Source: an uncultured Gammaproteobacteria bacterium
GTDB taxonomy: Bacteria; Pseudomonadota; Gammaproteobacteria; SZUA-229
NCBI GenBank assembly: GCA_963759005.1
Contig: CAVWXQ010000005.1
Location: forward strand, 14,546-78,545
DNA: 64,000 nucleotides
Direction of reading: 5' to 3'
A program made the translations under genes and the position numbers. Positions 10,166 through 54,045 of the stretch are shown piece by piece (position 1 is the first letter of the stretch; each line of letters opens with the position of its first letter). Under the pieces are notes generated by a model. It made no database searches, was not told where the DNA came from, and worked only from the letters and a program-made list of their open reading frames with translations.

Positions 10166-10186
10166 GTTTTATTTTTTTGGCTTTAA

Positions 10187-10565
10187 CCCGGATATTTCAT
10201 AGGAATGCAGACAATGGGAACATGTTTTATAAAATCAGTCAGTGAGTCAGTTTGTACGATTCGCCGATAAAATCGTAGGAACGATTTTACATGAGCGAAG
10301 CGAGCCCGTAGGGTGAAGGGCAGGAAGCCCGTAATTAAAGCATAGCCGTTCGGCACATCGCTTCGCTGCTCCATGCATTGCCCTACTACCGTACTTCCTG
10401 TACATAAGCTATGGTTACAGGGGAATCGTACAAAATGGCCGCTGATATTTTTCCAAAAGCTGCATAGCGTTATCGGGTACATAGTGTACTTTCTAATATA
10501 CCTGAATTTCATATTACAATCATAGTGTTAAGCGAGATTAGCAAGGTTCCTATGAAATATCCGGG
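10187..10565. mobile_element. MITE family 2 copy A (379 bp, perfect 23-bp TIR TTAACCCGGATATTTCATAGGAA, flanked by TTAA at 10183-10186 and 10566-10569)
   Basis: Perfect terminal inverted repeats with TTAA on both sides. Internal hairpins (GAGCGAAGCGA/TCGCTTCGCTGCTC). Related copies at 30447 and 45290. Confidence 0.75.
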
Positions 10566-11153
10566 TTAATGAAGGCGGAGATGCGGATAATTGTAAGGAT
10601 AATAGTAAGGATAATACATCGGATAATAGGGGCCGTACATCCACGGGTAAGGTGGATAATCGAGATATGACTGTTCCGGTTCAGGGGGCCATAAGTAATA
10701 GTGATCTACCTGAATAACCGGATATTCATAGAGAAATTCTCCCACCTTGAGATTGTCAGCTCTGAGTACCTGTCCCGTTACTGTAATTTTGCGCTCCGCA
10801 CTATACACCTGCGGTTCCACGAATTCATCTATGATGGCGATAAATCGCCCCGGACTTTGATCAGAGCTCAGCGGTTTACCATTTTCACTTAAAGGAAACG
10901 CAATAATTGTCAGCACACTGGCATTTTGTTTGTTCTCCGTGTGAAGAATAGCGCCACCCCAGCGTACTTTTTGAGACAGGTAGGAGCCTGTCTGATGACG
11001 TACCTGTGCAACGCCGGGGCTGCCGTCCAGTGGTTGCTTTATTTCAGGCGGGATGTGTGAGCTACAGGCAGACAGCAGCACAATAACCGCAAGTCTGCCA
11101 AAAAAAGTTATCGATTTAAAAAATATCACTCCAGTTAGAAAAAACCAAGGCAT
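10566..11153 (-). CDS. Slp-family lipoprotein paralog with Tyr/Pro-rich C-terminal tail
   Basis: Lipobox LLSAC. A WGGAIL...GRFIA core is followed by YPPYPWMYGPYYPMYYPYYYPYNYP. Its stop TAA is the TTAA flanking the MITE. Confidence 0.65.
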   Translation of the reverse strand: MPWFFLTGVIFFKSITFFGRLAVIVLLSACSSHIPPEIKQPLDGSPGVAQVRHQTGSYLSQKVRWGGAILHTENKQNASVLTIIAFPLSENGKPLSSDQSPGRFIAIIDEFVEPQVYSAERKITVTGQVLRADNLKVGEFLYEYPVIQVDHYYLWPPEPEQSYLDYPPYPWMYGPYYPMYYPYYYPYNYPHLRLH

Positions 11154-17566: not shown

Positions 17567-17837
17567 CTAGTACTCTATCAACCTGATAATGACGGATGCA
17601 GTTGGTCTGTCAGCGTTCAGGGCAAGGCACGCCTCGCAGCAAATGGCCTTAGTCCTTTGCAAGAGGTGTAACGATGCCATGGACGTTGACAGACCAACCC
17701 TTCGGGCATCGCTGTGGTGTCTCGCCACTGCGTTACAGCACTTGACAAGGACTATGGCCATTGCCTACGTACTGTGCCTTGTTGCGAAACACCACAACGA
17801 TGCTGCATCCGTCATTATCAGGTTGATAGAGTACTAG
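17567..17837. mobile_element. MITE family 1 copy 1 (approx. 265-bp nested palindrome, ends TACTCTATCAACCTGATAATGACGG.TGCAG, CTAG on both sides)
   Basis: There are three near-identical copies in the window (here, 25728 and 47657). A 35-bp TIR encloses a second internal inverted repeat. The ORFs inside are mirror artefacts. Confidence 0.8.
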
Positions 17838-17948: not shown

Positions 17949-18677
17949 GTGCGTATTGGATTACTGGAAGACGACTTAAGTCAAATTGAATTAATTAGCC
18001 TGTGGGCGAGTGAAGCTGGTGACCATCTACAGTCTTATACCTCTGGTAAAAGTTTTCGTGAAGCGATGAACACAGAAAACTTTGACCTGCTGGTACTCGA
18101 CTGGCATCTTCCCGATACTACCGGTATCGAGGAGCTCGACTGGTTACGCGGTGAGAAAGCCTCCAGCACACCGGTCATTTTTATTACCAGTCGGGACAGC
18201 GAACAAAGCGTAGTCGAAGCGCTGGATCACGGCGCAGATGATTATATGGTCAAACCGGTGACAAAAGGCGTCACCCTGGCCCGTATCAAAGCACTTCAGC
18301 GTCGTAATAAGATCGGCGACACGCTGGCGACTTCAGGCAGTGGGATGGCTAATGAGACTGACCGGGTGTCCGCCATTCTTGATTTCGATCCTTATCTAAT
18401 TAATACCGCGGAGCACAGTATCTCGGTCAATGGCGAAGTGATAAAACTCACCTATAAAGAATTTGAACTGGCGGCTTACCTGTTTCGTCATGCCGGTTGC
18501 CTGGTTTCACGTGATCATCTGCTCGAGTTCATCTGGGGCACACGGGCAGATCTCAATACCCGTACGGTGGACACCCATATCAGTCGGATTCGCTCAAAAC
18601 TGGGGATTAACCCGGCCGTTGGCTGGCAGCTCAGTAGCATCTATCAACGCGGTTATCGTTTATCCAGGGTATCTTAG
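17949..18677 (+). CDS. OmpR/PhoB-family response regulator (GTG start)
   Basis: Receiver domain (LVLDWHLPD..., K at MVKP) and winged-helix C-terminus (LTYKEFELAAYL...TVDTHISRIRSKL). Confidence 0.75.
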   Translation: MRIGLLEDDLSQIELISLWASEAGDHLQSYTSGKSFREAMNTENFDLLVLDWHLPDTTGIEELDWLRGEKASSTPVIFITSRDSEQSVVEALDHGADDYMVKPVTKGVTLARIKALQRRNKIGDTLATSGSGMANETDRVSAILDFDPYLINTAEHSISVNGEVIKLTYKEFELAAYLFRHAGCLVSRDHLLEFIWGTRADLNTRTVDTHISRIRSKLGINPAVGWQLSSIYQRGYRLSRVS

Positions 18678-22650: not shown

Positions 22651-22670
22651 AATTGTAAGCAATTGTTAAC
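22651..22670. promoter_or_regulatory. Conserved palindromic operator AATTGTAAGCAATTGTTAAC upstream of cassette copy 1
   Basis: The same approx. 45-bp block (aattgtaagcaattgttaa.tc..catttt...gcattgc) recurs at 26368. A related perfect palindrome GTTAACAATTGTTAAC is at 27539. Confidence 0.45.
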
Positions 22671-22732
22671 TCTTCATTTTCAGCATTGCCTATTGTTACC
22701 AGCTTATTTATAGTGATCGCGAAATAGCATGA

Positions 22733-23110
22733 TTGATTAATTCATCTATTTCTAACGACCAGCTATTGGAGAATCAAATGGACTGTAGAAAAGAGTGTTT
22801 TGCAGAACACGGTGTTACTTTTGCAGAGAAACTGCAAGAAGTCGGATTCTCAGTGGATCAGGCCGGGCAGTTTTTGCCTGAAACAGAATCAGGCATTATG
22901 GCTGGCATGCAAAATACGGGTGTAGAAAATATGATGGCAACCCTGTTATCTGAAGAGCCTTCTCAGTTATCAAACTTAATTAAGGTAGAAGCTATCGCCA
23001 ATAAACTGGGGGTGAATCATTATCAGGTAACAACTGGTCATGAAGCAATCACTCCCCTCATGTGCAAAGCATTATCACAAAAAATAATGATCTTGCTGGT
23101 GCTTCTTTAG
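22733..23110 (+). CDS. Hypothetical protein, cassette gene A1 (probable start 22778, GGAGA SD)
   Basis: Paralogous to 26403..26870 (LSEEPSQLSNLIKVEAIANKLGV vs LSDNPSQLIKTINVHAMAKKLGI). Confidence 0.5.
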   Translation: MINSSISNDQLLENQMDCRKECFAEHGVTFAEKLQEVGFSVDQAGQFLPETESGIMAGMQNTGVENMMATLLSEEPSQLSNLIKVEAIANKLGVNHYQVTTGHEAITPLMCKALSQKIMILLVLL

Positions 23111-23198
23111 CCTGAGGTTCAACGGGTGAAATAACCAGTTCAGTTAAAAATTTTTGTTTAGTAAATAACTTTATATTAACAACACAGGAGAACATAAC

Positions 23199-23606
23199 AT
23201 GTCAAAAAATATTCAAAGTATAGAAGGTATCGGTCCGAAGTATGCGGAACTACTGCTACAGGAGTGTATTAAAACTACTGATAAGTTGCTGGAAGTCGGC
23301 TGCAGCAAATCTGGCCGAAAAGAACTGGCAGAAAAAATATCAATCAATGAAACCAGTATATTGAAGTGGGTCAACATGTGTGATCTGTTTCGCATAAATG
23401 GTGTTGCTGGACAGTTCGCAGAACTTCTTGAGGGTGCCGGCGTTGATACTGTAAAAGAACTTCGCAATCGTAATGCTGATAATCTTGCAGAGAAAATGGC
23501 TGAAGTAAACAAAGAGAAGCATTTATGTAAAGCCTCTCCCAGATCAAAAACTGTCAGCAAGTGGATAGAACAGGCAAAAACTTTAGAACCAATGGTTACG
23601 CATTAA
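23199..23606 (+). CDS. DUF4332-type helix-hairpin-helix protein, cassette gene B1
   Basis: IEGIGPKYAELL and GVAGQFAELLEGAGVDTVKELRNRNADNLAEK are two HhH-like repeats. It is about 70% identical to 26909..27316. Confidence 0.6.
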   Translation: MSKNIQSIEGIGPKYAELLLQECIKTTDKLLEVGCSKSGRKELAEKISINETSILKWVNMCDLFRINGVAGQFAELLEGAGVDTVKELRNRNADNLAEKMAEVNKEKHLCKASPRSKTVSKWIEQAKTLEPMVTH

Positions 23607-24600: not shown

Positions 24601-25731
24601 ATGAATAAAGTGATGTTAGTAACAGCAGTATCTTCAATCGTAGTGTTGTCAGGCTGTGCATCTACAGGTGAAACAGGCGCAAACATTCAGAAAGAATACG
24701 AAGCTGAACTTAATGCCCGTAACCAGCAAATTGAACAATTAAAACAGAAGCTGGATGAAAGCCAGAAAGTGGCAGCCTCATCCAGAAGTACACCTACAAG
24801 CGCATCTGCCAGCATGGAAACACAGCAAGCGACGAATACTAGTACAACTTTCAATAATAACCTGTTGCCACCAAATGCCAAGGCTGGTCAATGTTTTGCT
24901 CGCGTTTACACACCGCCCACCTACCGAACAGAAAGCGAAAGTGTACTTAAAGCTGATGGTTATGATGTGGTAACAATCATACCTGCTGTTTATGGTACTG
25001 AAAAACAAACGGTAATGACTGCAGAAGCAACGGAAGCTCTCGAAGTCATCCCGGCGGTTTATGGCTGGAAAGAAGAACAGGTATTAGTCAGTCCTGAAAT
25101 CACTGAATTACAACGTGTGCCAGCAAAATATGGCTTCGAAGAAGAAAAACTTCTAGTTAAACCTGCACACTCCATATGGAAAAAAGGCACCGGCCCTATC
25201 ACAAAAGTAAACCAGAGCACTGGTGAAATCATGTGCCTGGTTGAAGTACCGGCTGTTTATGAAACCGTTAAAAAACGAGTTCTACTAACACCTGAAACCA
25301 CCAAACTGGTTGTCGTTAAAGCGGCAGTTTACAAAACGGTCAAAACACGCGTTGTTGAGCAGCCTGCCAGAACGGTTAGCAAAGAAATCCCTGCAAAATA
25401 CGACACTGTAGAGGTGAAAAAGCTGCTTAAAGAGTCAACCACAACATCGGTTAGTGTTCCTCCTGTATATGAAACAGTGAAAACCACCATTAATGTCGCT
25501 GATGGCTTCCTTGAGTGGACACCGATTCTGTGCGAAACCAATGTTACTGGTGACATTATTCGTCAGCTTCAGCAATCATTGAATGATAAAAACTATAACG
25601 CTGGTCCAGTCGATGGTGTTTATGGTTGGCAGACTACTGCTGCAGTTCGCAAATACCAGAGAGATAATAAGATGCCTGGTGACGGTCAGTTGACGATTGC
25701 ACTGGTTGAATCTTTGAATCTTAAATACTAG
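24601..25731 (+). CDS. Lipoprotein with 7 tandem approx. 20-aa repeats (PAVYxTxKxxVL) and C-terminal peptidoglycan-binding (PG_binding_1-like) domain
   Basis: Lipobox VLSGC. Repeats PAVYGTEKQTV / PAVYGWKEEQV / PAKYGFEEEKL / PAVYETVKKRV / AAVYKTVKTRV / PAKYDTVEVKK / PPVYETVKTTI. C-terminal NYNAGPVDGVYGWQTTAAVRKYQ. The stop TAG lies in the CTAG target of the adjacent MITE. Confidence 0.65.
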   Translation: MNKVMLVTAVSSIVVLSGCASTGETGANIQKEYEAELNARNQQIEQLKQKLDESQKVAASSRSTPTSASASMETQQATNTSTTFNNNLLPPNAKAGQCFARVYTPPTYRTESESVLKADGYDVVTIIPAVYGTEKQTVMTAEATEALEVIPAVYGWKEEQVLVSPEITELQRVPAKYGFEEEKLLVKPAHSIWKKGTGPITKVNQSTGEIMCLVEVPAVYETVKKRVLLTPETTKLVVVKAAVYKTVKTRVVEQPARTVSKEIPAKYDTVEVKKLLKESTTTSVSVPPVYETVKTTINVADGFLEWTPILCETNVTGDIIRQLQQSLNDKNYNAGPVDGVYGWQTTAAVRKYQRDNKMPGDGQLTIALVESLNLKY

Positions 25732-26007
25732 TACTCTATCAGCCTGATAATGACGGATGCAGCATCGTTGTGGTGTTTCAGCAACAAGGCACAGTACGTA
25801 GGCAATGGCCATAGTCCTTGTCAAGTGCTGTAACGCAGTGGCGAGGACACCGACAGCGATGCCCTGAAGGGTATGGTCTGTCAACATCCATGGCACTGCG
25901 TTACACCTCTTGCAAAGGACTAAGGCCATTTGCTGCGAGGCGTGCCTTGCCGCTGAAACGCTGACAGACCAACTGCATCCGTCATTATCAGGTTGATAGA
26001 GTACTAG
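25728..26007. mobile_element. MITE family 1 copy 2 (inverted internal orientation), CTAG flanks
   Basis: The sequence is near-identical to the copies at 17567 and 47657. Confidence 0.8.
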
Positions 26008-26047: not shown

Positions 26048-26080
26048 ATAAGGGCGGCTTTATGCCGCCCTTATTGTTGT
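26048..26080 (+). terminator. Hairpin TAAGGGCGGC-tttat-GCCGCCCTTA + U-rich tail; probable original terminator of the lipoprotein gene, now separated from it by the MITE
   Basis: 10-bp GC-rich stem followed by ttgttgtggttt. Confidence 0.45.
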
Positions 26081-26367
26081 GGTTTAAATCTAGTATACGG
26101 CTTTTCATCTACTATCTGCGAAAGGATTCCTTTGAAACACTCATTACCTGAATAAAGACGTCATGAAGGTATCAACATTTGTCCGGATATTTTCTCAAAG
26201 CGCGAGTTCATTTGTTTCAATTATAAGCCACTTGAGCTCCAGGAATAGCGACGCTTCGATTGGTAATATCCGCTATCGTATTCTTAAGAAAACAGAGAAC
26301 AGTGCTCGCCAGCAGAGTGTCACACCTTCGGCCATCGGTAAATACGTTACATCCTCTCGGTATAACG

Positions 26368-26386
26368 AATTGTAAGCAATTGTTAA
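26368..26386. promoter_or_regulatory. Second copy of the AATTGTAAGCAATTGTTAA operator, upstream of cassette copy 2
   Basis: See 22651. Confidence 0.45.
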
Positions 26387-26402
26387 ATCAACATTTCTTG
26401 CA

Positions 26403-26870
26403 TTGCTTAAGTCCATGTACTTTTCTATAGTACCTATCAACGAAGAAGCAAACATTACTGTTTTGTCACTAATGGGGATTTACGTGGATTTTATAAAAAT
26501 TTATTTTGATGAATACAGCAGTGCGTTTACCAGAAAGCTGGGGGATGCGGGAATCACTGGCGATCTGGCTACTCAGTTCTTGTCTGAAACCGCATCGGCT
26601 ATCATGTACACCATCATAAACACAAACCTGGAAAAAACAATAGAAATACTGTTATCAGATAATCCTTCACAGCTTATAAAAACAATTAATGTCCATGCAA
26701 TGGCAAAAAAACTGGGCATAAGTTCAGAACAGATATCATCTGGCCTCGAATCCATTGCACCTGTAGTTTCACTGGTGTTTTTACTTAAGAGTAACGAGAT
26801 AGTTGCTGCCACGGCTTCTTTAGCCTGGAAAACAACAGATGAATACATCGATTCAGTGGGTAATTTATAG
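26403..26870 (+). CDS. Hypothetical protein, cassette gene A2 (true start uncertain)
   Basis: Paralog of 22733..23110. Confidence 0.5.
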   Translation: MLKSMYFSIVPINEEANITVLSLMGIYVDFIKIYFDEYSSAFTRKLGDAGITGDLATQFLSETASAIMYTIINTNLEKTIEILLSDNPSQLIKTINVHAMAKKLGISSEQISSGLESIAPVVSLVFLLKSNEIVAATASLAWKTTDEYIDSVGNL

Positions 26871-26908
26871 ATAAATAATAATTATTTTAACTATATCGGA
26901 GAAAAAAA

Positions 26909-27316
26909 ATGTCAAGAAGTCTTCAAAATGTAAAAGGTATCGGACCGAAGAATGCAGGACTATTAAACCAGCAAGGGATCTATACCACTAGCAAACTGCT
27001 GGAAGTTGGTCGCAACCGTTCTGGCAGAAAAGAAATAGCGGACAAAACATCTATCAGTGAATCCATAATACTGAAATGGGTCAACCTGTGCGACCTGTTT
27101 CGGATAAATGGCATTGCCGGACAGTTCGCAGAACTGCTTGAATGTGCAGGCGTAGATACCGTAAAGGAACTTCGGAATCGAAATGCAGAAAATCTTGCAG
27201 AAAAAATAAAAGAAGTAAATGAGCAGAAACACCTGTGTAAAGTAACACCTAGTGCAAGCAATATATCAGACTGGATCGAACAGGCAAAAACAATGGAACC
27301 CATGGTTACGTATTAG
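26909..27316 (+). CDS. DUF4332-type HhH protein, cassette gene B2
   Basis: Paralog of 23199..23606. Confidence 0.6.
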   Translation: MSRSLQNVKGIGPKNAGLLNQQGIYTTSKLLEVGRNRSGRKEIADKTSISESIILKWVNLCDLFRINGIAGQFAELLECAGVDTVKELRNRNAENLAEKIKEVNEQKHLCKVTPSASNISDWIEQAKTMEPMVTY

Positions 27317-30386: not shown

Positions 30387-30446
30387 AGGTGTACATCCTC
30401 TTCCAGGACTGATTAAAAGTAACAAATTGCAGTCTATCTTTTTTAA

Positions 30447-30775
30447 CCCGGATATTTCATAGGTACGCTGTCAATATAGCTTAACACTATGTTTATAATT
30501 AGAAATACAGGAATATTAGAAAACTACACCATATACCCGATACCGCTCGGCACAACGCTACGCTCATATAAAATCGTTCCTACGATTTTATCGGCGAATC
30601 GTACAAACGACCGCCACGGATGGCGGAAGTGTCGATTTTGCATCGTTACATTGATGTAACTTATTAGGGCAATGCAGGAGCTATTGCCGAGGAGCATCAC
30701 ATCGACCTGACTCACTGCCGATTTTTAAAAAAACATAGCCCCAACTACTGCATTCCTATGAAGTATTCGAGTTCA
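30447..30775. mobile_element. MITE family 2 copy B (left TIR intact, right TIR degenerate), 60 bp upstream of the tal start
   Basis: TTAACCCGGATATTTCATAGG at 30443. Internal homology to copy A (cgattttatcggcgaatcgtac). The right end ttcctatgaagtattcgagttca is degenerate. Confidence 0.65.
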
Positions 30776-32458: not shown

Positions 32459-32509
32459 CTATTTGATAGTTTTAAATCAGATTAGCAGCGTTCCAATTTA
32501 ATATCCTGG

Positions 32510-35059
32510 CTAGACACCCTGGCGCAGGCTTTGTATGGGTGGCGATGTTAATACACTACGTGTTCCAAGTATTCCTGCAATGACGACGATCAGTATGCCA
32601 CAGATAATACCTGTCAGGGCCACGGTAATATCAAACTGGTAAGAAAACTTGAAAACGAATTTAGCCAGTAGCCAGGCAAGTGACGTTGCTGCAACTCCGG
32701 CCAGTAAACCGGACAATGCACCGAGCAGGGTAAATTCTGCAAACAGTCCAAGCATCAGGGTTTTTTTGCTGGCCCCTAATGTTCTTAATACCGCGTTTTC
32801 GAATCGCCTTTCATCATGACTAGACTGAATAGCCGCATACAATACAGCCAGACCGGCCAACAATGTAAACAGAAAAATAAATTCAACTGCCAGTGAGACA
32901 CGATTGATGATACCACGTACACGATTCATGATGGTTTCCACATCAATCAGCGTAATGTTGGAAAACTGGCGTACCAGACTAGCCAGTTGCAAACGTTGCT
33001 TTTTATTGAGATAGACACTGGTTACCCAGTTTGCCGGTTTATCTTCGAGCACAGCCGGTGGCACCACGGTGAAAAAGTTAATATTGAAAGTGTCCCAGTC
33101 GACAGTGCGAAGATTACTCACGGTGAAATCCATAACTGTGCCATTAATATCGAAACCAATAACATCATTCAGTTTCAGTTTTAAGGTTTCAGCCAGTTTC
33201 GATTCCAGTGACAATAAAGGTTTTCCAAAATCATCCCTGCTCCACCATGAACCGGCAACCACGGCATTACCCAGTTGCATATTCTCAGCCCATGAAAGAT
33301 TAAATTCACGGGTCAGCAGATGTTTTGCACGTTCACTTTCATAGTCTGAACTATTCACCTTGCTGTTATTAATCTCCACCAGCCTGGCCCGCACCATGGG
33401 ATATAATTTGGTATTGCTGACCCCCATAGTTTGAAAATAATCTGTTATTGGTGTTACCTGATCAGGCTGTACGTTGATCACAAAATAATTCGGCGCATTT
33501 TCGGGCAGACTGTTTTGCCAGTCGTTGAGTAAATCAGAACGCACAGTAGACAATAACAGCATTACCATAATCCCCAATCCAAAAGACACAATCTGAATCA
33601 CACTACTGCCTGGCCGGCGTGAAATATTTGCCAGCCCAAAACGCCAGGCTATACCCACTCTGCCACGCAAACGATTCAGCAGCAGAATGAGAAGGTAAGC
33701 AGCCAATGCCAGTATTACCAGGGTAGCCATAATGCCGCCAACAACCACACTAACCAGTAATATATCTCCGATCTGCAAATACATCAGCAGCGACATAGAC
33801 AACAACACAGCAAGGTAAACGGTCCAGACACGGGGCGGCTGCGTTGGCACATCTTTACGTAACACATGTAATGGCGGCACCCGGCGCAAGGAGAGCAATG
33901 GCGGCAGTGCAAAGCCGATAAGCAAAACGATGCCAGTTGCATAACCCAGAAAAAACGCTGTAAAAGATGGTGCAGGTAATTGTGTTAGCACCAGTTGATC
34001 AAGCAATTGTGTTATTACAAACTGTGTCAGTAAACCAAGAAAACAGCCAACACTGCTGGCCAGCAGTGCAAGCCAGAACATTTCCAAAGTGAAAAGTTGT
34101 ATGATGGTTTTCTGCGAGGCGCCAAGACAGCGCATCATGGCGCTGTTATTAAGGTGACGGTTGCTAAAACGGTTTGCCACCGTCGCCACTGCAACGCCAG
34201 CAAGCAACACGCTGATCAGTGCGGCAAGGCCAAGAAACTTTTTAGCACTATGTAGTGCAGTATTCAGTTCCGGCCGGCCTTCTTCAAGCGTAAGAATGCT
34301 TTCACCCGGTCGTAACTTATTCGTAATGGCCTTGCGATAACTGTTAATACTGCTGCTTTCTCCCGAAATCAACACGCGATAATTTACCAGTGCGCCTGTA
34401 CTTATCAATCCGGTGCTTGCCAGATCGAGACTGTTCATCATCACCCGTGGCGCAACACTAAACAGGTCACCGGCACGGTCGGGTTCATAACGCAGGATCT
34501 TGCCAAGTTTGAAGCTTGCATTGCCGAGGTCCACCCTGTCACCCATGTTTAAACCCAGTAGCGTCAAGAGTCGTGCTTCTACCCAGAGTTCACCCGGTGC
34601 CGGCAAACTAGTGGTTGCTTCATCATCACCAAAAGCACTGTCACTGATGCGTAACACACCGCGTAAAGGATAACCTTCGCTGACCGCCTTTACTTCTGTC
34701 AGTTGCAGACCTTCGTTAGCCAGTAGCACACTACGAAACTGTATCGTGGTGGTTACCTGAAAGTCATTTGATCGTGCATCAGCGATAAAATCGTTAATAT
34801 CGGAACGTCCGGAAGTAATCACCAGGTCAGCAGCAATCAGTTCAGCTGACTGCATTTGCAGACCTTGTTCGATTCGGTTTGTGAACAGGCCCACGGCAGT
34901 AATACTGGTTACCGCGATGATAAGACCAATGGCAAGAATATTTAGCTCACCGCCGCGCCAGTCACGCCATAACATGCGCCATGAGTTAGTCCAGTAAAAG
35001 CCAAACCCTCGATTTTGTCCAGAGCCTGTGTTCTTTGCGGAAAACGTATTTGGAATCAT
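32510..35059 (-). CDS. ybbP: FtsX-family ABC transporter permease (YbbP-like, 10 TM, two FtsX domains)
   Basis: 849 aa. Duplicated FtsX-like TM bundles. It is adjacent to the ybbA-like ATPase and tesA as in E. coli. Confidence 0.75.
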   Translation of the reverse strand: MIPNTFSAKNTGSGQNRGFGFYWTNSWRMLWRDWRGGELNILAIGLIIAVTSITAVGLFTNRIEQGLQMQSAELIAADLVITSGRSDINDFIADARSNDFQVTTTIQFRSVLLANEGLQLTEVKAVSEGYPLRGVLRISDSAFGDDEATTSLPAPGELWVEARLLTLLGLNMGDRVDLGNASFKLGKILRYEPDRAGDLFSVAPRVMMNSLDLASTGLISTGALVNYRVLISGESSSINSYRKAITNKLRPGESILTLEEGRPELNTALHSAKKFLGLAALISVLLAGVAVATVANRFSNRHLNNSAMMRCLGASQKTIIQLFTLEMFWLALLASSVGCFLGLLTQFVITQLLDQLVLTQLPAPSFTAFFLGYATGIVLLIGFALPPLLSLRRVPPLHVLRKDVPTQPPRVWTVYLAVLLSMSLLMYLQIGDILLVSVVVGGIMATLVILALAAYLLILLLNRLRGRVGIAWRFGLANISRRPGSSVIQIVSFGLGIMVMLLLSTVRSDLLNDWQNSLPENAPNYFVINVQPDQVTPITDYFQTMGVSNTKLYPMVRARLVEINNSKVNSSDYESERAKHLLTREFNLSWAENMQLGNAVVAGSWWSRDDFGKPLLSLESKLAETLKLKLNDVIGFDINGTVMDFTVSNLRTVDWDTFNINFFTVVPPAVLEDKPANWVTSVYLNKKQRLQLASLVRQFSNITLIDVETIMNRVRGIINRVSLAVEFIFLFTLLAGLAVLYAAIQSSHDERRFENAVLRTLGASKKTLMLGLFAEFTLLGALSGLLAGVAATSLAWLLAKFVFKFSYQFDITVALTGIICGILIVVIAGILGTRSVLTSPPIQSLRQGV

Positions 35060-43084: not shown

Positions 43085-43137
43085 AAAAAGGACCAGAGAG
43101 CATACACTCTTCGACCCTTGTTATCATGGCTGCTAGA

Positions 43138-43431
43138 TCAGACGCAACCAGTTGGTTTTGGTAGACCACCATATTTGGTTATCGGTTTCATCGGGCCAGT
43201 CATCCACATTTTGAATATTTCTTTTTGATCGATGCCTGTATATTTGGCGAATTTTCGGATCGGCGGAACGACAGCGTTATCCTCATAATATTCTCTGGCT
43301 TTGAGTATCTGCTGCCATTTGCTGTCATCGAGATCCACGCCATCGGTCTCAGCCATAGCGCGGCCTATTTCAGGTGACCAGGTGTTCATATCGACAAGAT
43401 AGCCGTCGCCATCACGTTCATAGTTTTGCAT
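43138..43431 (-). CDS. TusE/DsrC-family sulfur-relay protein (single C-terminal Cys; ends GLPKPTGCV)
   Basis: Collinear with DsrC/TusE (EYYE...PPIRKF.K...GGLPKPTGCV). It lacks the second, Cys-A, residue. Confidence 0.75.
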   Translation of the reverse strand: MQNYERDGDGYLVDMNTWSPEIGRAMAETDGVDLDDSKWQQILKAREYYEDNAVVPPIRKFAKYTGIDQKEIFKMWMTGPMKPITKYGGLPKPTGCV

Positions 43432-43764
43432 ATTTATTGCCTCGTAAAGTAATTACTGATGTTTATGGTTAATAATATAATATGGGGACGGAAAGCAAAA
43501 AATCAAGGTGTTACAAAATTATGAGATTCAGATGTAATTTATCAAATATATTTTATAAGTATTTGAATATATTGAAAATAAGCGTCAATACTACACTGAT
43601 GATGAGTATCAAAATGATAAGGATAAAATTTTTTCAGACGCTGTTTCTATACCTATATCACCGGGCAACTTACCAAACCAGTTCAGCGACCAGGGTGCAA
43701 AATCCAGCAACGCACCGATGATTAGTAATAGCACCCCCATTATCATTAGCCATCCAGATCCTGT

Positions 43765-45289: not shown

Positions 45290-45344
45290 TAATTAACACA
45301 ATAGTGTTAAGTTGATTTTTCAGTATTCCTATGAAATATCCGGG
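45290..45344. mobile_element. Solo end fragment of MITE family 2 (TTCCTATGAAATATCCGGG + TTAA)
   Basis: Perfect right-TIR copy plus an internal catagtgttaag block. No partner TIR. Confidence 0.6.
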
Positions 45345-45351
45345 TTAATTC

Positions 45352-47656: not shown

Positions 47657-47927
47657 CTTGTACTCTATCAACCTGATAATGACGGGTGCAGTTGGTCTGT
47701 CAACGTTCAGGGTAAGGCACGCCTCGCAGCAAATGGCCTTAGTCCTTTGCAAGAGGTGTAACGATGCCATGGACGTTGACAGACCAACCCTTCGGGCATC
47801 GCTGTGGTGTCTCGCCACTGCGTTACAGCACTTGACAAGGACTATGGCCATTGCCTGCGTACTGTGCCTTGTTGCGAAACACCACAGCGATGCTGCACCC
47901 GTCATTATCAGGATGATAGAGTACTAG
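47657..47927. mobile_element. MITE family 1 copy 3 inserted in-phase (267 bp including the CTAG duplication) in the exonuclease gene
   Basis: Flanks gcta-CTtG[...]CTAG-atta. The ancestral gctaCTAGatta encodes ...YNLVAH.... The element carries a TAA in the gene frame at 47823-25 on the minus strand. Confidence 0.8.
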
Positions 47928-47992
47928 ATTATAATCCTCGATAAAATCAGCAAATGCCAGCATCACTTCCTCACAGGGCGCCGCCTTGTTAA

Positions 47993-48318
47993 GGGCACCT
48001 CTATTAATTGCTTGTGCCCTCTGGCTTTACGACCAGTTCAGAATCAAGACGTGCTTTTGAAGCCATGCCCACAGTTAATACACATGGGCCTGTCGAAAAA
48101 GCGCAACGCAGAGTCTGGGCTGGTCGTAAAGCCCCGTAGGGCGCAGCCTGAAGCATGCATCTGCTCGGCAATTGCTCCTGCATTGCCCTACTACCGTCCT
48201 TCCATGGACATATGCGTTGTGAGCCTTGAGAATGGAATAACCATTCTGCTGCGGCTCACGCCTTGCAGCTACACGCTTCAGGTCACGCAGAGGACATAAG
48301 CAATTAATAGAGGTGCCC
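47993..48318. mobile_element. MITE family 3 (326 bp; 21-bp TIR GGGCACCTCTATTAATTGCTT, TTAA duplication) in the exonuclease gene
   Basis: TTAA lies on both sides (47989-92 and 48319-22). It shares an internal 60-70 bp core (..gcattgccctactaccgt..) with MITE family 2. Confidence 0.7.
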
Positions 48319-48549
48319 TTAAGCATCTTATTGGTAATGCCCGTATAGTTCTCAATGAAGGCACTTATGCGCTTATGAGGATTCATCAACTGTTGAAAAC
48401 GATCAACTAATTCACCGTTCACTAATTTCACCGCACCTATTTCAATGGCACGATCACCGTAATCAGGCGACAGACCTGTGGTTTCAAAATCCAGGACAAT
48501 AACCGTATCGGCAGTTGAATTTATATCAATCATTTTTATATTTTATGAA

Positions 48550-49552
48550 TTAACGATATAGCACAATACGGTAATGCGCATTGCCGTTTCTTAATCGTGT
48601 GATCGCTTCATTTATGTTATCGAAGCTAAATTTTTCGATAACGGGTTTGATGTCGTGGAGTCGGGCAAACTCAAGCATTTTAGTAATTGTGGCAGGACTG
48701 CCTACCGGGGAGCCAGAGATAGAACGTTGATTCATAATGAGTGAAAACACATTGATATCCAGCGGTTCTAATGTCGCACCAACAAAATGTAATCGCCCGC
48801 GAGCATGCAGCGTGCTGAGATACAAGTTCCAGTCCAGCTTAACGTTGACCGTAGAAATAATCAGATCAAAGCTGCCGACTGCCGCTTCTATGTCATTCTG
48901 ATCGCGGGAATTTAATGTATGGTGAGCGCCCAGATTCAAGCGCTTCATTTTTTTTCGCTTCACTGGAAGTAAAAGCCGTCACTTCACAACCCCATGCTTT
49001 AAGAAACTGCAGCGCCATGTGGCCAAGACCGCCGATGCCAATAACCGCCACTTTGTCTGTAGGTTTGATATCAAACTGAACCAGGGGATTAAACACAGTG
49101 ATGCCACCGCAAAACAGCGGGCCGGCAGATTCCAGATCCATACCTTCTGGAATCGGCACCACACTATTTGCCTGCGCGCGCACCTTGTCGGCAAAACCCC
49201 CATGATGACCAAGGATAGTGGGCTGTGAAGTAGCGCAAAGGTTATGGTCACCGCTGCGACAAAGCGCGCACTCGTTGCAGTAACCTGCATGCCAGCCCAG
49301 CCCCACGACCTGACCCATAGTGAAATGTTTAACCTGGTCACCGATTTTAGCAATCTTGCCGACTACTTCATGCCCGGGCACAACAGGGTACTGGGTCATG
49401 CCCCAGTCATTATCAATAACACTCAAATCACTGTGACAAATACCCGAGTAGAGAACATCAATCTCAACCTCATTATCTTTTAATTCACCCGGATCATACT
49501 CAAAGGGTTTAAGCGTACCCTTAGGTTCAAACGCTGCAAAGGCTTTTATCAT
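48550..49552 (-). pseudogene. Zn-dependent NADP alcohol dehydrogenase (YahK/cinnamyl-ADH-like) with frameshift near 48965
   Basis: ORF 48893..49552 carries the GHEVVGKI Zn site and GIGGLGHMA Rossmann. The C-terminal 110 aa (LGAHHTLNSRDQND...) continue in the +1 frame (ORF 48550..48963). Confidence 0.6.
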
Positions 49553-53400: not shown

Positions 53401-53529
53401 TGACAAAACCTTAATAGAACTCATCTTAAGCAATTTCTAGCTTAAGACTACACCTTAACGGGTAATAATTCTGTTGATATTAACGTAGATAGTTTTTCAA
53501 TTGTCACCACCCCTAAAGATCACTACAAA

Positions 53530-53823
53530 TTAGACGCAACCCGTTGGTTTAGGTAAACCGCCATATTTTGTTATTGGCTTCATCGGACCGCTCATCCACA
53601 TTTTGAATATTTCCTTCTGATCGATGCCAATATACTTGGCGAATTTGCGGATAGGAGGAACCACTGCGTTATCTTCATAGTATTCCCTTGCTTTGACTAT
53701 CTGATCCCATTTGGCTTCGTCGAGTTCTACCCCGTCGCTCTCTGCCATAGCGCGACCTATTTCAGGCGTCCATTCGTTCATGTCGACCAGATAACCGTCA
53801 CCATCGCGTTTAATTTCTAGCAT
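53530..53823 (-). CDS. TusE/DsrC-family protein, paralog (approx. 85% aa identity) of 43138..43431
   Basis: Same length and the same C-terminus GGLPKPTGCV. About 80 bp of upstream sequence is also conserved between the two copies. Confidence 0.75.
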   Translation of the reverse strand: MLEIKRDGDGYLVDMNEWTPEIGRAMAESDGVELDEAKWDQIVKAREYYEDNAVVPPIRKFAKYIGIDQKEIFKMWMSGPMKPITKYGGLPKPTGCV

Positions 53824-54045
53824 TTATATTGCCTCGTCAAGTCGTTAAAATTAATTGTACTGTCTGTTTATATGGTGACGAATGACTATAAATCAAGGTG
53901 TTATCGTATATTGTAGAAAACGGCCTGAAGAAAAGCAGAGACAAGGATCCTCCTCTTTGTTGCCTGTTTACAAAATACCAAATGGTTCAATCCGCTCCGG
54001 CTCTAAAACTAATACTTTTCCACGTCCTCGTCGTTAGCACTCGAA

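What the first reader, a model, noticed from the sequence alone, without database searches (positions are those of the whole stretch)
17567..17837. MITE family 1: a 265-bp nested-palindrome element with CTAG target duplication, three copies in 64 kb
Copies lie at 17567-17837, 25728-26007 (internal part inverted) and 47657-47927. Each has 35-bp terminal inverted repeats (TACTCTATCAACCTGATAATGACGG.TGCAG) enclosing a second inverted repeat (GCAAATGGCCTTAGTCCTTTGCAAGAGGTGTAACG / CGTTACAGCACTTGACAAGGACTATGGCCATTGC), so the whole element can fold into one long hairpin. Every copy is bounded by CTAG on both sides. At the exonuclease insertion the pre-insertion sequence can be reconstructed as gctaCTAGatta, which implies a 4-bp duplication. 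A 4-bp YTAR duplication is the signature of IS5-family transposition, but no transposase gene is present in this window. The ORFs listed inside the copies are mirror-image artefacts of the palindrome.
Basis: seen in the sequence. Interest (0 to 1): 0.7.

Follow-up and report, generated by a model that had tools for sequence, protein, structure and literature searches.

The report
CTAG-targeting two-armed miniature transposon
A 265-bp non-coding mobile DNA element (a MITE) sits three times in this window, always at a CTAG-type site, and has split an exonuclease gene. Its transposase is unknown. It carries two conserved hairpin arms that other MITE families in the same bacteria also carry.

Summary
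The repeat is real: three copies, 93-97% alike, and copy 2 is simply the whole element reversed. It is mobile. Removing it, together with a second MITE, restores a 211-aa exonuclease that is intact in relatives, and related strains show empty or singly occupied sites.

Three details do not.
- One flank is CTTG, not CTAG.
- The base outside TACTC is G at 31/31 independent ends, while the outermost flank base varies (C 24, T 5, A 2). Five sites pair TTAG with CTAG-type rather than CTAA. This fits GTAC...GTAC ends with a TA duplication inside YTAR, as in IS630/Tc1-mariner or IS1301, not a 4-bp IS5-type duplication.
- The favoured fold is a 32-bp terminal stem carrying two 98-nt hairpin arms, not one long hairpin.

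The arms share an invariant core and strongly covarying stems. Their wobble pairs are strand-specific (G·U 83, A·C 1). They recur in two other MITE families with different ends. Six subfamilies keep exactly 265 bp and matched ends, although the ends diverge faster than the interior.

No transposase or full-length parent element was found. Verdict: a genuine MITE of unusual architecture; mobilising enzyme and arm function are unresolved.

The parts
17570..17834 (+). MITE copy 1, 265 bp from the G tip to the C tip. It is flanked by TA at 17568-17569 and 17835-17836, within CTAG at 17567-17570 and 17834-17837. It is intergenic, about 110 bp upstream of a response-regulator ORF (17949-18677).
17570..17601 (+). 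Left terminal inverted repeat of copy 1 (32 nt): GTACTCTATCAACCTGATAATGACGGATGCAG.
   Evidence: 32/32 identical to the reverse complement of the right end
17602..17699 (+). Left hairpin arm (L module), sense on the + strand. Core motifs are GCAAGGC, AATGGCC.TAGTCC, CAAG and AACG.
   Evidence: covariance model R1, 109.5 bits; covariation
17700..17704 (.). Centre linker. Together with neighbouring bases it forms CCCTTCGGG, a possible mini-hairpin.
17705..17802 (-). Right hairpin arm (R module), sense on the - strand.
   Evidence: R1, 96.4 bits
17803..17834 (-). Right terminal inverted repeat of copy 1.
25731..26004 (-). MITE copy 2, 274 bp with small indels, whole element reversed. Its flanking CTAG at 25728-25731 contains the TAG stop codon of the 376-aa ORF 24601-25731. 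It lies between that stop codon and a GC-rich inverted repeat followed by a T-rich stretch at about 26053-26085, seen by eye and not scanned. The arms are at 25763-25863 (+, R type) and 25871-25972 (-, L type).
47660..47924 (+). MITE copy 3, 265 bp, inside a DnaQ-like 3'-5' exonuclease gene on the - strand. Flanks are CTTG on the left and CTAG on the right. The arms are at 47692-47789 (+) and 47795-47892 (-).
47993..48318 (.). Second MITE family (F2, 326 bp) in the same exonuclease gene. Its TIR is GGGCACCTCTATTAATTGCTT and it is flanked by TTAA (47989-47992 and 48319-48322). It carries two copies of the same hairpin module, at 48024-48134 (+) and 48208-48266 (-).

Best explanation
This is a non-autonomous DNA transposon (MITE) of 265 bp.

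Shown directly:
- It has GTAC tips and 32-bp perfectly matched terminal inverted repeats.
- It is found at different loci and in both orientations.
- Its insertions are polymorphic between related strains.
- It inserts at CTAG or YTAG-type sites. Each insertion adds 267 bp, that is 265 bp plus 2.
- It is built as TIR - arm - 5-nt centre - arm - TIR.
- Each arm is a roughly 98-nt hairpin whose structure is conserved on the strand that runs 5'->3' inward from the nearer tip.

Inferred:
- It moves by cut-and-paste, carried out by a DDE transposase supplied in trans that binds the TIRs.
- That enzyme makes a 2-nt staggered cut at the central TA of CTAG, so repair duplicates TA.
- The enzyme is most likely of the IS630/Tc1-mariner type. 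An IS5-family IS1301-like enzyme is the alternative.

Weaker inference:
- The arms are a cis-acting or regulatory structure inherited from the ends of the parent element.
- Because one 'sense' arm faces each end, any single strand that enters from outside meets a stable, sequence-specific hairpin first. This holds for a read-through transcript or for the lagging-strand template.
- The arms may therefore insulate or process read-in transcripts, or help assemble the ends.
- The divergence between the two arms also prevents a 265-bp perfect palindrome from forming.
For: Copies and chance.

Mobility:
- The reconstructed exonuclease is 211 aa and 90% identical over its full length to an intact 211-aa homologue.
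- Its DNA is colinear, without gaps, with the empty sites in L035 and L036.
- L031, 94-96% identical to the window, has this MITE but lacks the F2 MITE.
- The MITE is nested in another MITE (F3), and the composite lies at five or more different loci.

Target and duplication:
- G at 31/31 independent ends and 61/61 ends in total. Flank positions -4, -3 and -2 vary.
- Five sites pair TTAG with a CTAG-type flank.
- CTAG is fourfold depleted in the window, so three hits on it are not chance.
- Literature: IS630 inserts at TA within CTAG; IS1301 targets AYTAG and duplicates TA; flanking repeats of MITEs decay over time.

Architecture:
- The two-armed fold is favoured by 26-30 kcal/mol.
- 30 of 35 arm pairs have compensatory double changes. 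All five measures exceed all 500 shuffles and all slid controls.
- G·U outnumbers A·C by 83 to 1 and by 72 to 9 in the wider alignment.
- The same module lies 26-32 nt from the tip in families F1, F2 and F3.

Subfamilies: six of them, five exactly 265 bp (L041 is 313 bp with an insertion), with the two ends 31-32/32 identical within each of those five.
Against: - No full-length element with these ends was found. The exact 21-mer scans of genome contigs and metagenome contigs gave only MITEs, solo ends and probable chance hits. None was found in any fetched locus, in plasmids or phages, or in viral contigs.
- Because CTAG is a palindrome, duplications of 0, 2 or 4 bp give the same sequence at a perfect site. 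TA rests on statistics of imperfect flanks, not on a clean non-palindromic duplication.
- The ends diverge faster between subfamilies (62-84% identity) than the interior does (83-96%), yet stay matched within each element. This is unusual for a transposase binding site. It could instead point to selection for, or a mechanism maintaining, base pairing of the two ends.
- The proposed role of the arms is untested.
Confidence: 0.6

Rival explanations
1. One reading: an IS5-group MITE with ends TACTC...GAGTA that duplicates a 4-bp YTAR target (CTAG).
For: - Most flanks read CTAG on both sides.
- A real IS5-like bacterial MITE, MITEPsy1, duplicates 4 nt at CTAG or YTAA (PMC3189936).
- The length of the empty-site reconstruction also fits this model.
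Against: - The base next to TACTC is G at 31/31 independent ends, whereas its symmetry partner at -4 is C in only 24/31.
- Five sites with TTAG at one end have CTAG or C(A/T)(A/T)G at the other, never the CTAA that a 4-bp direct repeat requires.
Confidence: 0.1
2. The same MITE and the same TA duplication, but mobilised by an IS5-family transposase of the IS1301/IS427 kind rather than an IS630-family one.
For: - IS1301 targets AYTAG and duplicates TA (PMC2193550).
- The flanks here show Y at -4, and A is the commonest base at -5 (14/31).
- From my own knowledge, IS5-family ends often start with G.
Against: - The preference for A at -5 is weak (A 14, C 9, T 5, G 3).
- No such transposase or matching IS end was seen.
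- CTAG with a TA duplication is equally the IS630 pattern.
Confidence: 0.2
3. A structure-dependent single-strand mechanism, like REPIN/RAYT or IS200/IS605-derived palindromic elements. An HUH enzyme would recognise the hairpin arms, and CTAG would be a cleavage or target tetranucleotide that is not duplicated.
For: - The arm structure is conserved in a strand-specific way, with invariant unpaired bases.
- The two arms lie in inverted orientation, like a REP doublet.
- The interior is better conserved than the ends.
- The module persists across families with different ends.
Against: - The element has long perfect TIRs and two-fold symmetry. From my own knowledge, IS200/IS605 elements are asymmetric, lack TIRs and use hairpins on one strand only.
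- The arms are about 98 nt, not the 20-40-bp REPs with GTAG or CGTC tags (PMC3733652 abstract).
- The ends are 31-32/32 matched within each of five subfamilies, as expected of a TIR-binding enzyme.
- Flank decay treats T and A alike on both sides.
Confidence: 0.08
4. Not a transposon at all: a family of structured RNA genes or regulatory hairpins duplicated together with their surroundings.
For: Strong structural covariation and exact length conservation at 265 bp.
Against: - The boundaries are sharp at TA/CTAG and the flanks are unrelated.
- One copy sits inside a coding sequence that is intact in relatives.
- Copies are nested in other repeats.
- There is no Rfam match even at E = 10.
Confidence: 0.02

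Closest known systems
IS630/Tc1-mariner-derived bacterial MITEs (for example RUP of S. pneumoniae, proposed to be moved by IS630-Spn1; PMC2229807) and IS630 itself
   Same: - Small and non-coding, with TIRs.
- Insertion at TA, with IS630's known preference for TA inside 5'-CTAG-3'.
- Transcripts are predicted to form long stem-loops.
   Different: - No matching IS630-family element or transposase was found.
- The tips are GTAC.
- The TIR is 32 bp and perfect.
- The element has two conserved internal hairpin arms and a fixed 265-bp length across subfamilies.
MITEPsy1 of Pseudomonas syringae (IS5-like; PMC3189936)
   Same: A bacterial MITE that inserts at CTAG.
   Different: MITEPsy1 is 100 nt long and duplicates 4 nt (CTAG or YTAA). 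Here the flank statistics reject a 4-bp duplication.
Correia/NEMIS elements of Neisseria (PMC2229807)
   Same: - TA at the termini and TIRs of about 24-26 bp.
- Located in intergenic and 3'-UTR positions.
- Hairpin transcripts that affect neighbouring mRNAs.
   Different: - No sequence similarity was tested or seen.
- Correia elements are 107-155 bp and fold by pairing of the 5' and 3' ends, without separate arms.
CIR elements of Caulobacter and Brucella (PMC2229807)
   Same: The RNA model has two long inverted repeats that form two arms joined by a linker.
   Different: CIRs lack TIRs, and their mobility is unclear. Here the arms sit inside a classical TIR element with insertion polymorphism.
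REPINs / BIMEs moved by RAYT transposases (PMC2817692 and PMC3733652)
   Same: Two palindromic units in inverted orientation, with structure more conserved than sequence.
   Different: REPs are 20-40 bp with GTAG or CGTC tags and no flanking TIRs. Here the units are 98 nt, carry a different conserved core, and are bracketed by 32-bp TIRs.

Membership tests
Bacterial MITE (non-autonomous TIR element) | Small size (about 50-500 bp) with no coding capacity | tested here: met
   The element is 265 bp. Its internal ORFs (82-92 aa) have no Pfam domains and match only ORFs from other copies of the same element.
Bacterial MITE (non-autonomous TIR element) | Terminal inverted repeats | tested here: met
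   The ends are 32/32 complementary in copy 1 and 31-32/32 in five subfamilies.
Bacterial MITE (non-autonomous TIR element) | Multiple dispersed copies with presence/absence polymorphism | tested here: met
   There are 3 copies in the window and copies at 31 independent flank clusters in the fetched loci. Empty sites occur in L035 and L036, and a singly occupied site in L031.
Bacterial MITE (non-autonomous TIR element) | Target-site duplication | tested here: inconclusive
   Each insertion adds 267 bp net at a CTAG-type site. TA is inferred from flank statistics. The palindromic target hides the true length of the duplication.
Bacterial MITE (non-autonomous TIR element) | A cognate autonomous IS with matching ends | tested here: not met
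   None was found in the genome, metagenome or viral scans, in plasmids or phages, or in the fetched loci. The scans used an exact 21-mer, so a parent with diverged ends would be missed.
IS630/Tc1-mariner-mobilised element | TA duplication | tested here: inconclusive
   The pattern is consistent with TA: G is fixed at -1, while T and A at -3 and -2 decay alike. No clean non-palindromic case is available.
IS630/Tc1-mariner-mobilised element | Preference for TA inside CTAG (IS630 proper) | tested here: met
   The commonest flank is CTAG and the target consensus is YTAR. CTAG is fourfold depleted in the window.
IS630/Tc1-mariner-mobilised element | TIR similarity to an IS630-family IS, and presence of that transposase in the genome | not testable with these tools
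   No ISfinder-type library is available, the whole genome is not available, and the collection scans are capped.
IS5 family, IS5 group | 4-bp YTAR direct repeat | tested here: not met
   G at 31/31 ends against C at 24/31. Five sites pair TTAG with a CTAG-type flank and none has CTAA.
IS5 family, IS1301/IS427-like | TA duplication in an AYTAG target | tested here: inconclusive
   Y at -4 is met. A at -5 is only 14/31.
REP/REPIN (RAYT-associated) | 20-40-bp palindromes with a GTAG or CGTC tag and no TIRs | tested here: not met
   The units are 98 nt, have a different conserved core, and are bracketed by 32-bp TIRs.
Any Rfam 15 RNA family | Covariance-model match | tested here: not met
   No match at gathering threshold over the whole window, and none at E <= 10 over the element.

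The most novel reading that the evidence does not exclude
The roughly 98-nt arm would be a previously undescribed structured single-strand motif, either RNA or ssDNA. Its core is GCAAGGC / AATGG / CAAG / AACGC, held in covarying stems and always read inward from the element tip. On this reading the arm, not the TIR, is the conserved functional unit of a group of MITE families (F1, F2, F3). It would be required in cis for an as yet uncharacterised, structure-dependent step of mobilisation or of transcript control. That would explain why the ends are exchangeable and fast-evolving while the arms and the 265-bp geometry stay fixed.
Probability: 0.2. Interest if true: 0.7.

Novelty: new variant of a known kind. 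Interest (0 to 1): 0.45.

Why it matters
As a MITE it is ordinary biology with local consequences:
- a disrupted exonuclease gene;
- an insertion between a stop codon and a likely terminator hairpin (not scanned);
- an insertion upstream of a regulator gene.

Four features are unusual:
- The pattern of conservation is inverted. The ends diverge faster than the interior yet stay perfectly matched within each element.
- The length is fixed at 265 bp in five of the six subfamilies.
- The hairpin module shows strand-specific covariation.
- The same module recurs, at the same distance from the tip, in MITE families with unrelated ends and different target tetranucleotides.

If the module proves to be a functional RNA or ssDNA signal, it would give a handle on how some bacterial MITEs are recognised or tolerated.

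It would also give a search model for finding these elements in uncultured marine-sediment Gammaproteobacteria. There they evidently fragment metagenome assemblies, since many hits lie at contig ends.

Tried and rejected
- Rfam gave nothing, at gathering threshold over the whole window and at E <= 10 over the element.
- BLAST of the element against phages gave nothing. BLAST of the 39-nt end against plasmids at E <= 10 gave nothing.
- BLAST of the element against plasmids gave only a 29-nt match to the arm core, in Shewanella-type DNA next to qnrA6. This is informative for the module but not for the transposase.
- Viral-contig scans with the end motif and with the arm core found nothing.
- Two metagenome hits (L017, L030) sit in unrelated contexts with no transposase nearby. 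I treated them as probable chance 21-mer matches.
- An rve-domain ORF in L038 has IS3-type domains (rve, rve_3) and lies about 4 kb from that locus's MITE, so I did not pursue it as the parent.
- A regex for GTAC...TGAYGG.T.CAG ends found only MITE-spaced pairs, with no pair 1-3 kb apart.
- Exact-sequence look-up of the 376-aa neighbour gene found no record.
- A sigma-70 scan found one outward-facing promoter-like site in the left end (CTGACA-16-CATTAT). That is no more than shuffled sequence gives, so I make no claim from it.
- I considered that covariation could come from templated 'quasipalindrome correction' rather than selection. I rejected that as the sole cause, because it would not produce a G·T excess that switches strand between the two arms.
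- The Shewanella MR-1 mobile-element paper (PMC2394961) is not held.

Full report
**1. Observation**

The three stretches are copies of one element. Copies 1 and 3 align directly. Copy 2 aligns as a whole in reverse complement, with a few 1-2-nt indels. The 25-nt end motif occurs six times in the window with at most one mismatch, against none in 100 shuffles. The copies are 93-97% identical. The 271-nt stretch folds far better than shuffled sequence (z = -15 as DNA, -17 as RNA).

Two statements in the finding are wrong in detail:
- The left flank of copy 3 is CTTG, not CTAG.
- Copy 2 is simply inverted. Its interior is not rearranged.

**2. It is mobile**

Copy 3 lies in a DnaQ-like exonuclease gene on the minus strand. 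That gene also carries a second, unrelated 326-bp inverted-repeat element (F2, 47993-48318, flanked by TTAA). I removed both elements and kept one copy of each flanking tetranucleotide. This gives a 211-aa ORF that is 90% identical over its full length to an intact 211-aa protein from a metagenome.

The DNA of two such relatives (L035, L036) is colinear with the reconstruction and has no gap. It shows a single TTAA at the F2 site and CTGG at the site of this element. A closer strain (L031, 94-96% identical) has this element but not F2.

Exact-motif scans found the element in four MAG contigs labelled uncultured Gammaproteobacteria or Thiotrichaceae, and in 29 sediment-metagenome contigs. Many of these hits lie at contig ends. 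Using the element's spurious ORF as a protein query found 34 more clusters.

**3. Target and duplication**

CTAG is a palindrome. A 4-bp duplication with ends TACTC...GAGTA, a 2-bp TA duplication with ends GTAC...GTAC, and no duplication at all therefore all give the same sequence at a perfect site. Imperfect flanks separate the models.

I grouped 61 ends into 31 independent flank clusters:

| Position relative to TACTC | Bases observed |
|---|---|
| -1 | G 31/31 |
| -2 | A 26 |
| -3 | T 24 |
| -4 | C 24, T 5, A 2 |

Under a 4-bp duplication, -1 at one end is the complement of -4 at the other, so the two positions should vary alike. They do not (Fisher p = 0.011).

Five independent sites read TTAG at one end. 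Their partners read CTAG or C(A/T)(A/T)G, never CTAA. The net insertion is 267 bp, that is 265 plus 2.

I conclude that the element is GTAC...GTAC, the duplication is TA, and the target is YTAR with a strong preference for CTAG. CTAG is rare in this window (63 observed, 240 expected), while CTGG and CCAG are twofold over-represented. This makes the specificity striking. It may also explain why flanks so often read CTGG, CTTG or CAAG.

TA inside CTAG is the known behaviour of IS630 (reference cited in PMC2170065). IS1301 targets AYTAG and also duplicates TA (PMC2193550). A true 4-nt CTAG/YTAA duplication is known for the IS5-like MITEPsy1 (PMC3189936), but that model does not fit here.

**4. 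Anatomy**

The minimum-energy fold is not one long hairpin. It is a 32-35-bp terminal stem that bears two separate hairpins of about 98 nt, joined by a 5-nt centre. The single-hairpin alternative is 30 kcal/mol worse with RNA parameters and 26 kcal/mol worse with DNA parameters. In the palindromic register only 7/17 and 11/25 positions of the outer arm segments are complementary, against 35/35 in the terminal stem.

The left arm and the reverse complement of the right arm are homologous. They share the blocks GCAAGGC, AATGGCC.TAGTCC, CAAG and AACG, but their stems differ and are internally compensated.

**5. The arm is a conserved module**

A covariance model built from the arms (R1) finds all six arms in the window. 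It also finds two more arms inside the F2 element (45.5 and 23.4 bits).

In the metagenome loci a third family carries one such arm. This family (F3) has ends ATTCCGCAGTTGA and CTAG flanks. F3 contains this MITE nested at a fixed position, and the composite occurs at five or more loci with different flanks. A fourth family (F4) is inserted at a CTAG inside the F3 arm in some copies.

I aligned 18 arms from all these sources. The results were:
- 30 of 35 predicted pairs keep pairing through changes on both sides.
- 95% of cells are paired, against 67% in shuffles and 33-47% when partners are slid.
- All five measures exceed all 500 shuffles.

Wobble pairs are strongly one-sided: G·U 83 against A·C 1 in the first alignment and 72 against 9 in the wider one. 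The favoured strand is the + strand for the left arm and the - strand for the right arm. In F1 and F2 it is the strand that runs 5'->3' inward from the nearer tip (in F3 it is the strand running inward from the left tip), and the arm starts 26-32 nt from that tip. A mutational bias or a templated correction of palindromes would not switch strand at the centre of a 265-bp element. I therefore take this as selection on a single-stranded form, either RNA or ssDNA.

A degenerate copy of the core (28.8 bits) lies in chromosomal-type DNA next to qnrA6 on IncC plasmids of Klebsiella and E. coli. From my own knowledge, that DNA is of Shewanella origin.

**6. Subfamilies**

Contigs L033 and L037-L044 show six versions of the ends:
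- GTACTCTATCAACCTGATAATGACGGATGCAG
- GTACATCGTCTACATTATATTGACGGATTCAG
- GTACTCCAACAAGGCTATATTGATGGATACAG
- GTACTCCGACAAGGTGATATTGATGGGTTCAG
- GTACTCCTTCAACATGATAATGCCGGGCTCAG
- GTACTTCGTCAAGGTAATGTTGATGGATGCAG

Five of the six are exactly 265 bp long, with the two ends 31-32/32 identical to each other. The sixth (L041) is a chimera with mismatched ends (24/32) and an insertion. The ends are only 62-84% identical between subfamilies, while the interiors are 83-96% identical (58-65% for the most distant subfamily). Four of the five closer versions share the centre sequence AACCCTTCGGGC (L040a reads AAGCCTTTGGGC), so they descend from one MITE ancestor rather than from separate deletions in different parents.

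Ends that change faster than the interior yet stay matched are unusual for a MITE. I cannot explain this. Co-evolution with diverging transposases, exchange of ends by recombination, and correction across the paired terminal stem are all possible.

**7. What was not found**

There is no transposase among 20 window ORFs of 230-470 aa. No ORF-bearing element with these ends appears in any collection scan or fetched locus. There is no Rfam family match.

The scans used an exact 21-mer and were capped at one per large collection. A parent with diverged ends would have been missed.

**8. Interpretation**

The best-supported reading is a MITE mobilised in trans by a DDE transposase that duplicates TA within CTAG. 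An IS630/Tc1-mariner-type enzyme is most likely, with an IS1301-like IS5-family enzyme as the alternative.

The arms are a conserved, strand-specific hairpin module that belongs to the element end in several MITE families. Their role is inferred only. Because a sense arm faces each end, any transcript or exposed single strand entering from outside forms that hairpin first. This would suit insulation or processing of read-in transcripts, or an architectural role at the ends.

Keeping the two arms different from each other also avoids a long perfect palindrome. From my own knowledge, long perfect palindromes are unstable in bacteria.

The last is contradicted by the empty sites.

**9. Verdict**

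This is a real, mobile and locally disruptive element of a known kind. Its architecture is unusual enough to count as a new variant. The mobilising enzyme and the function of the arms remain open.

Noticed in passing
window 47993-48318 (TTAA at 47989-47992 and 48319-48322): A second MITE family (F2, 326 bp, TIR GGGCACCTCTATTAATTGCTT) also interrupts the exonuclease gene. Relatives L031, L035 and L036 have a single TTAA at that site. F2 carries two diverged copies of the same hairpin module.
   Followed up: partly
window 10185-10567 and 30445-30773; partial ends near 45326-45346 and 32491-32511: Another inverted-repeat element family, with ends (TT)AACCCGGATATTTCATAGGAA. Read as TTAA|CCC...GGG|TTAA, this resembles the piggyBac end and target pattern (my own knowledge). 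The 109-aa ORF at 10183-10512 lies inside one copy and may be an artefact.
   Followed up: partly
window 30667-30691 (+) and 48164-48188 (-); also L041 about 90-115: A small hairpin, GGGCAATGCAGGAGC(A/T)ATTGCCGAG, is shared by the F2 MITE and the AACCCGG-ended element. It also occurs as an insertion in the left arm of one family-1 copy (L041). This suggests that sub-modules are exchanged between MITE families.
   Followed up: no
whole window: CTAG is fourfold under-represented (63 observed, 240 expected), while CTGG and CCAG are about 2.1-fold over-represented. From my own knowledge, this is the pattern expected from very-short-patch-type repair. MITE flanks and empty sites often read CTGG, CTTG or CAAG where CTAG is expected.
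   Followed up: partly
L008 2095-2590, L011, L016, L022, L032: A composite element: MITE family F3 (ends ATTCCGCAGTTGA, CTAG flanks, one hairpin module) with a family-1 MITE nested at a fixed position. It is present at five or more loci with different flanks, so the nested pair moved as one unit. In L016 and L032 a fourth MITE (ends CCCGCATTTCTCACCAGG) is inserted at a CTAG inside the F3 arm.
   Followed up: partly
L034 2969-3058 (NC_021667.1, IncC plasmid, between a substrate-binding protein gene and tsaA, near qnrA6 and ISCR1): A 29-nt match at 96.6% identity to the arm core (GCAAATGGCCTTAGTCCTTTGCAAGA, preceded by GCAAGGC). It scores 28.8 bits with the arm model, but its stems have decayed. 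The module therefore exists outside the sediment Gammaproteobacteria.
   Followed up: partly
L020 4363-4418 and L027 3375-3434; L001 1656-1692 and L023 2236-2266: Natural deletion derivatives. L020 and L027 are 'minis' of end plus end with almost no interior. L001 and L023 are solo ends.
   Followed up: no
window 48550-49552 (- strand): Two overlapping ORFs (219 aa and 137 aa) look like the two halves of one zinc-type alcohol dehydrogenase. This suggests a frameshifted pseudogene right next to the disrupted exonuclease gene.
   Followed up: no
window 22651-23606 versus 26368-27316; 43137-43436 versus 53529-53828: Diverged duplications (77-83% identity): a two-gene cassette (copy 2 of the MITE lies about 360 bp upstream of its second copy), and a 97-aa ORF.
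   Followed up: no
window 17586-17613 (- strand), and the equivalent place in other L-type arms: An outward-facing promoter-like site, CTGACA-16 nt-CATTAT, spans the foot of the left arm and the inner TIR. It is no more than chance by the scan, but the two hexamers lie in conserved parts of the element.
   Followed up: no
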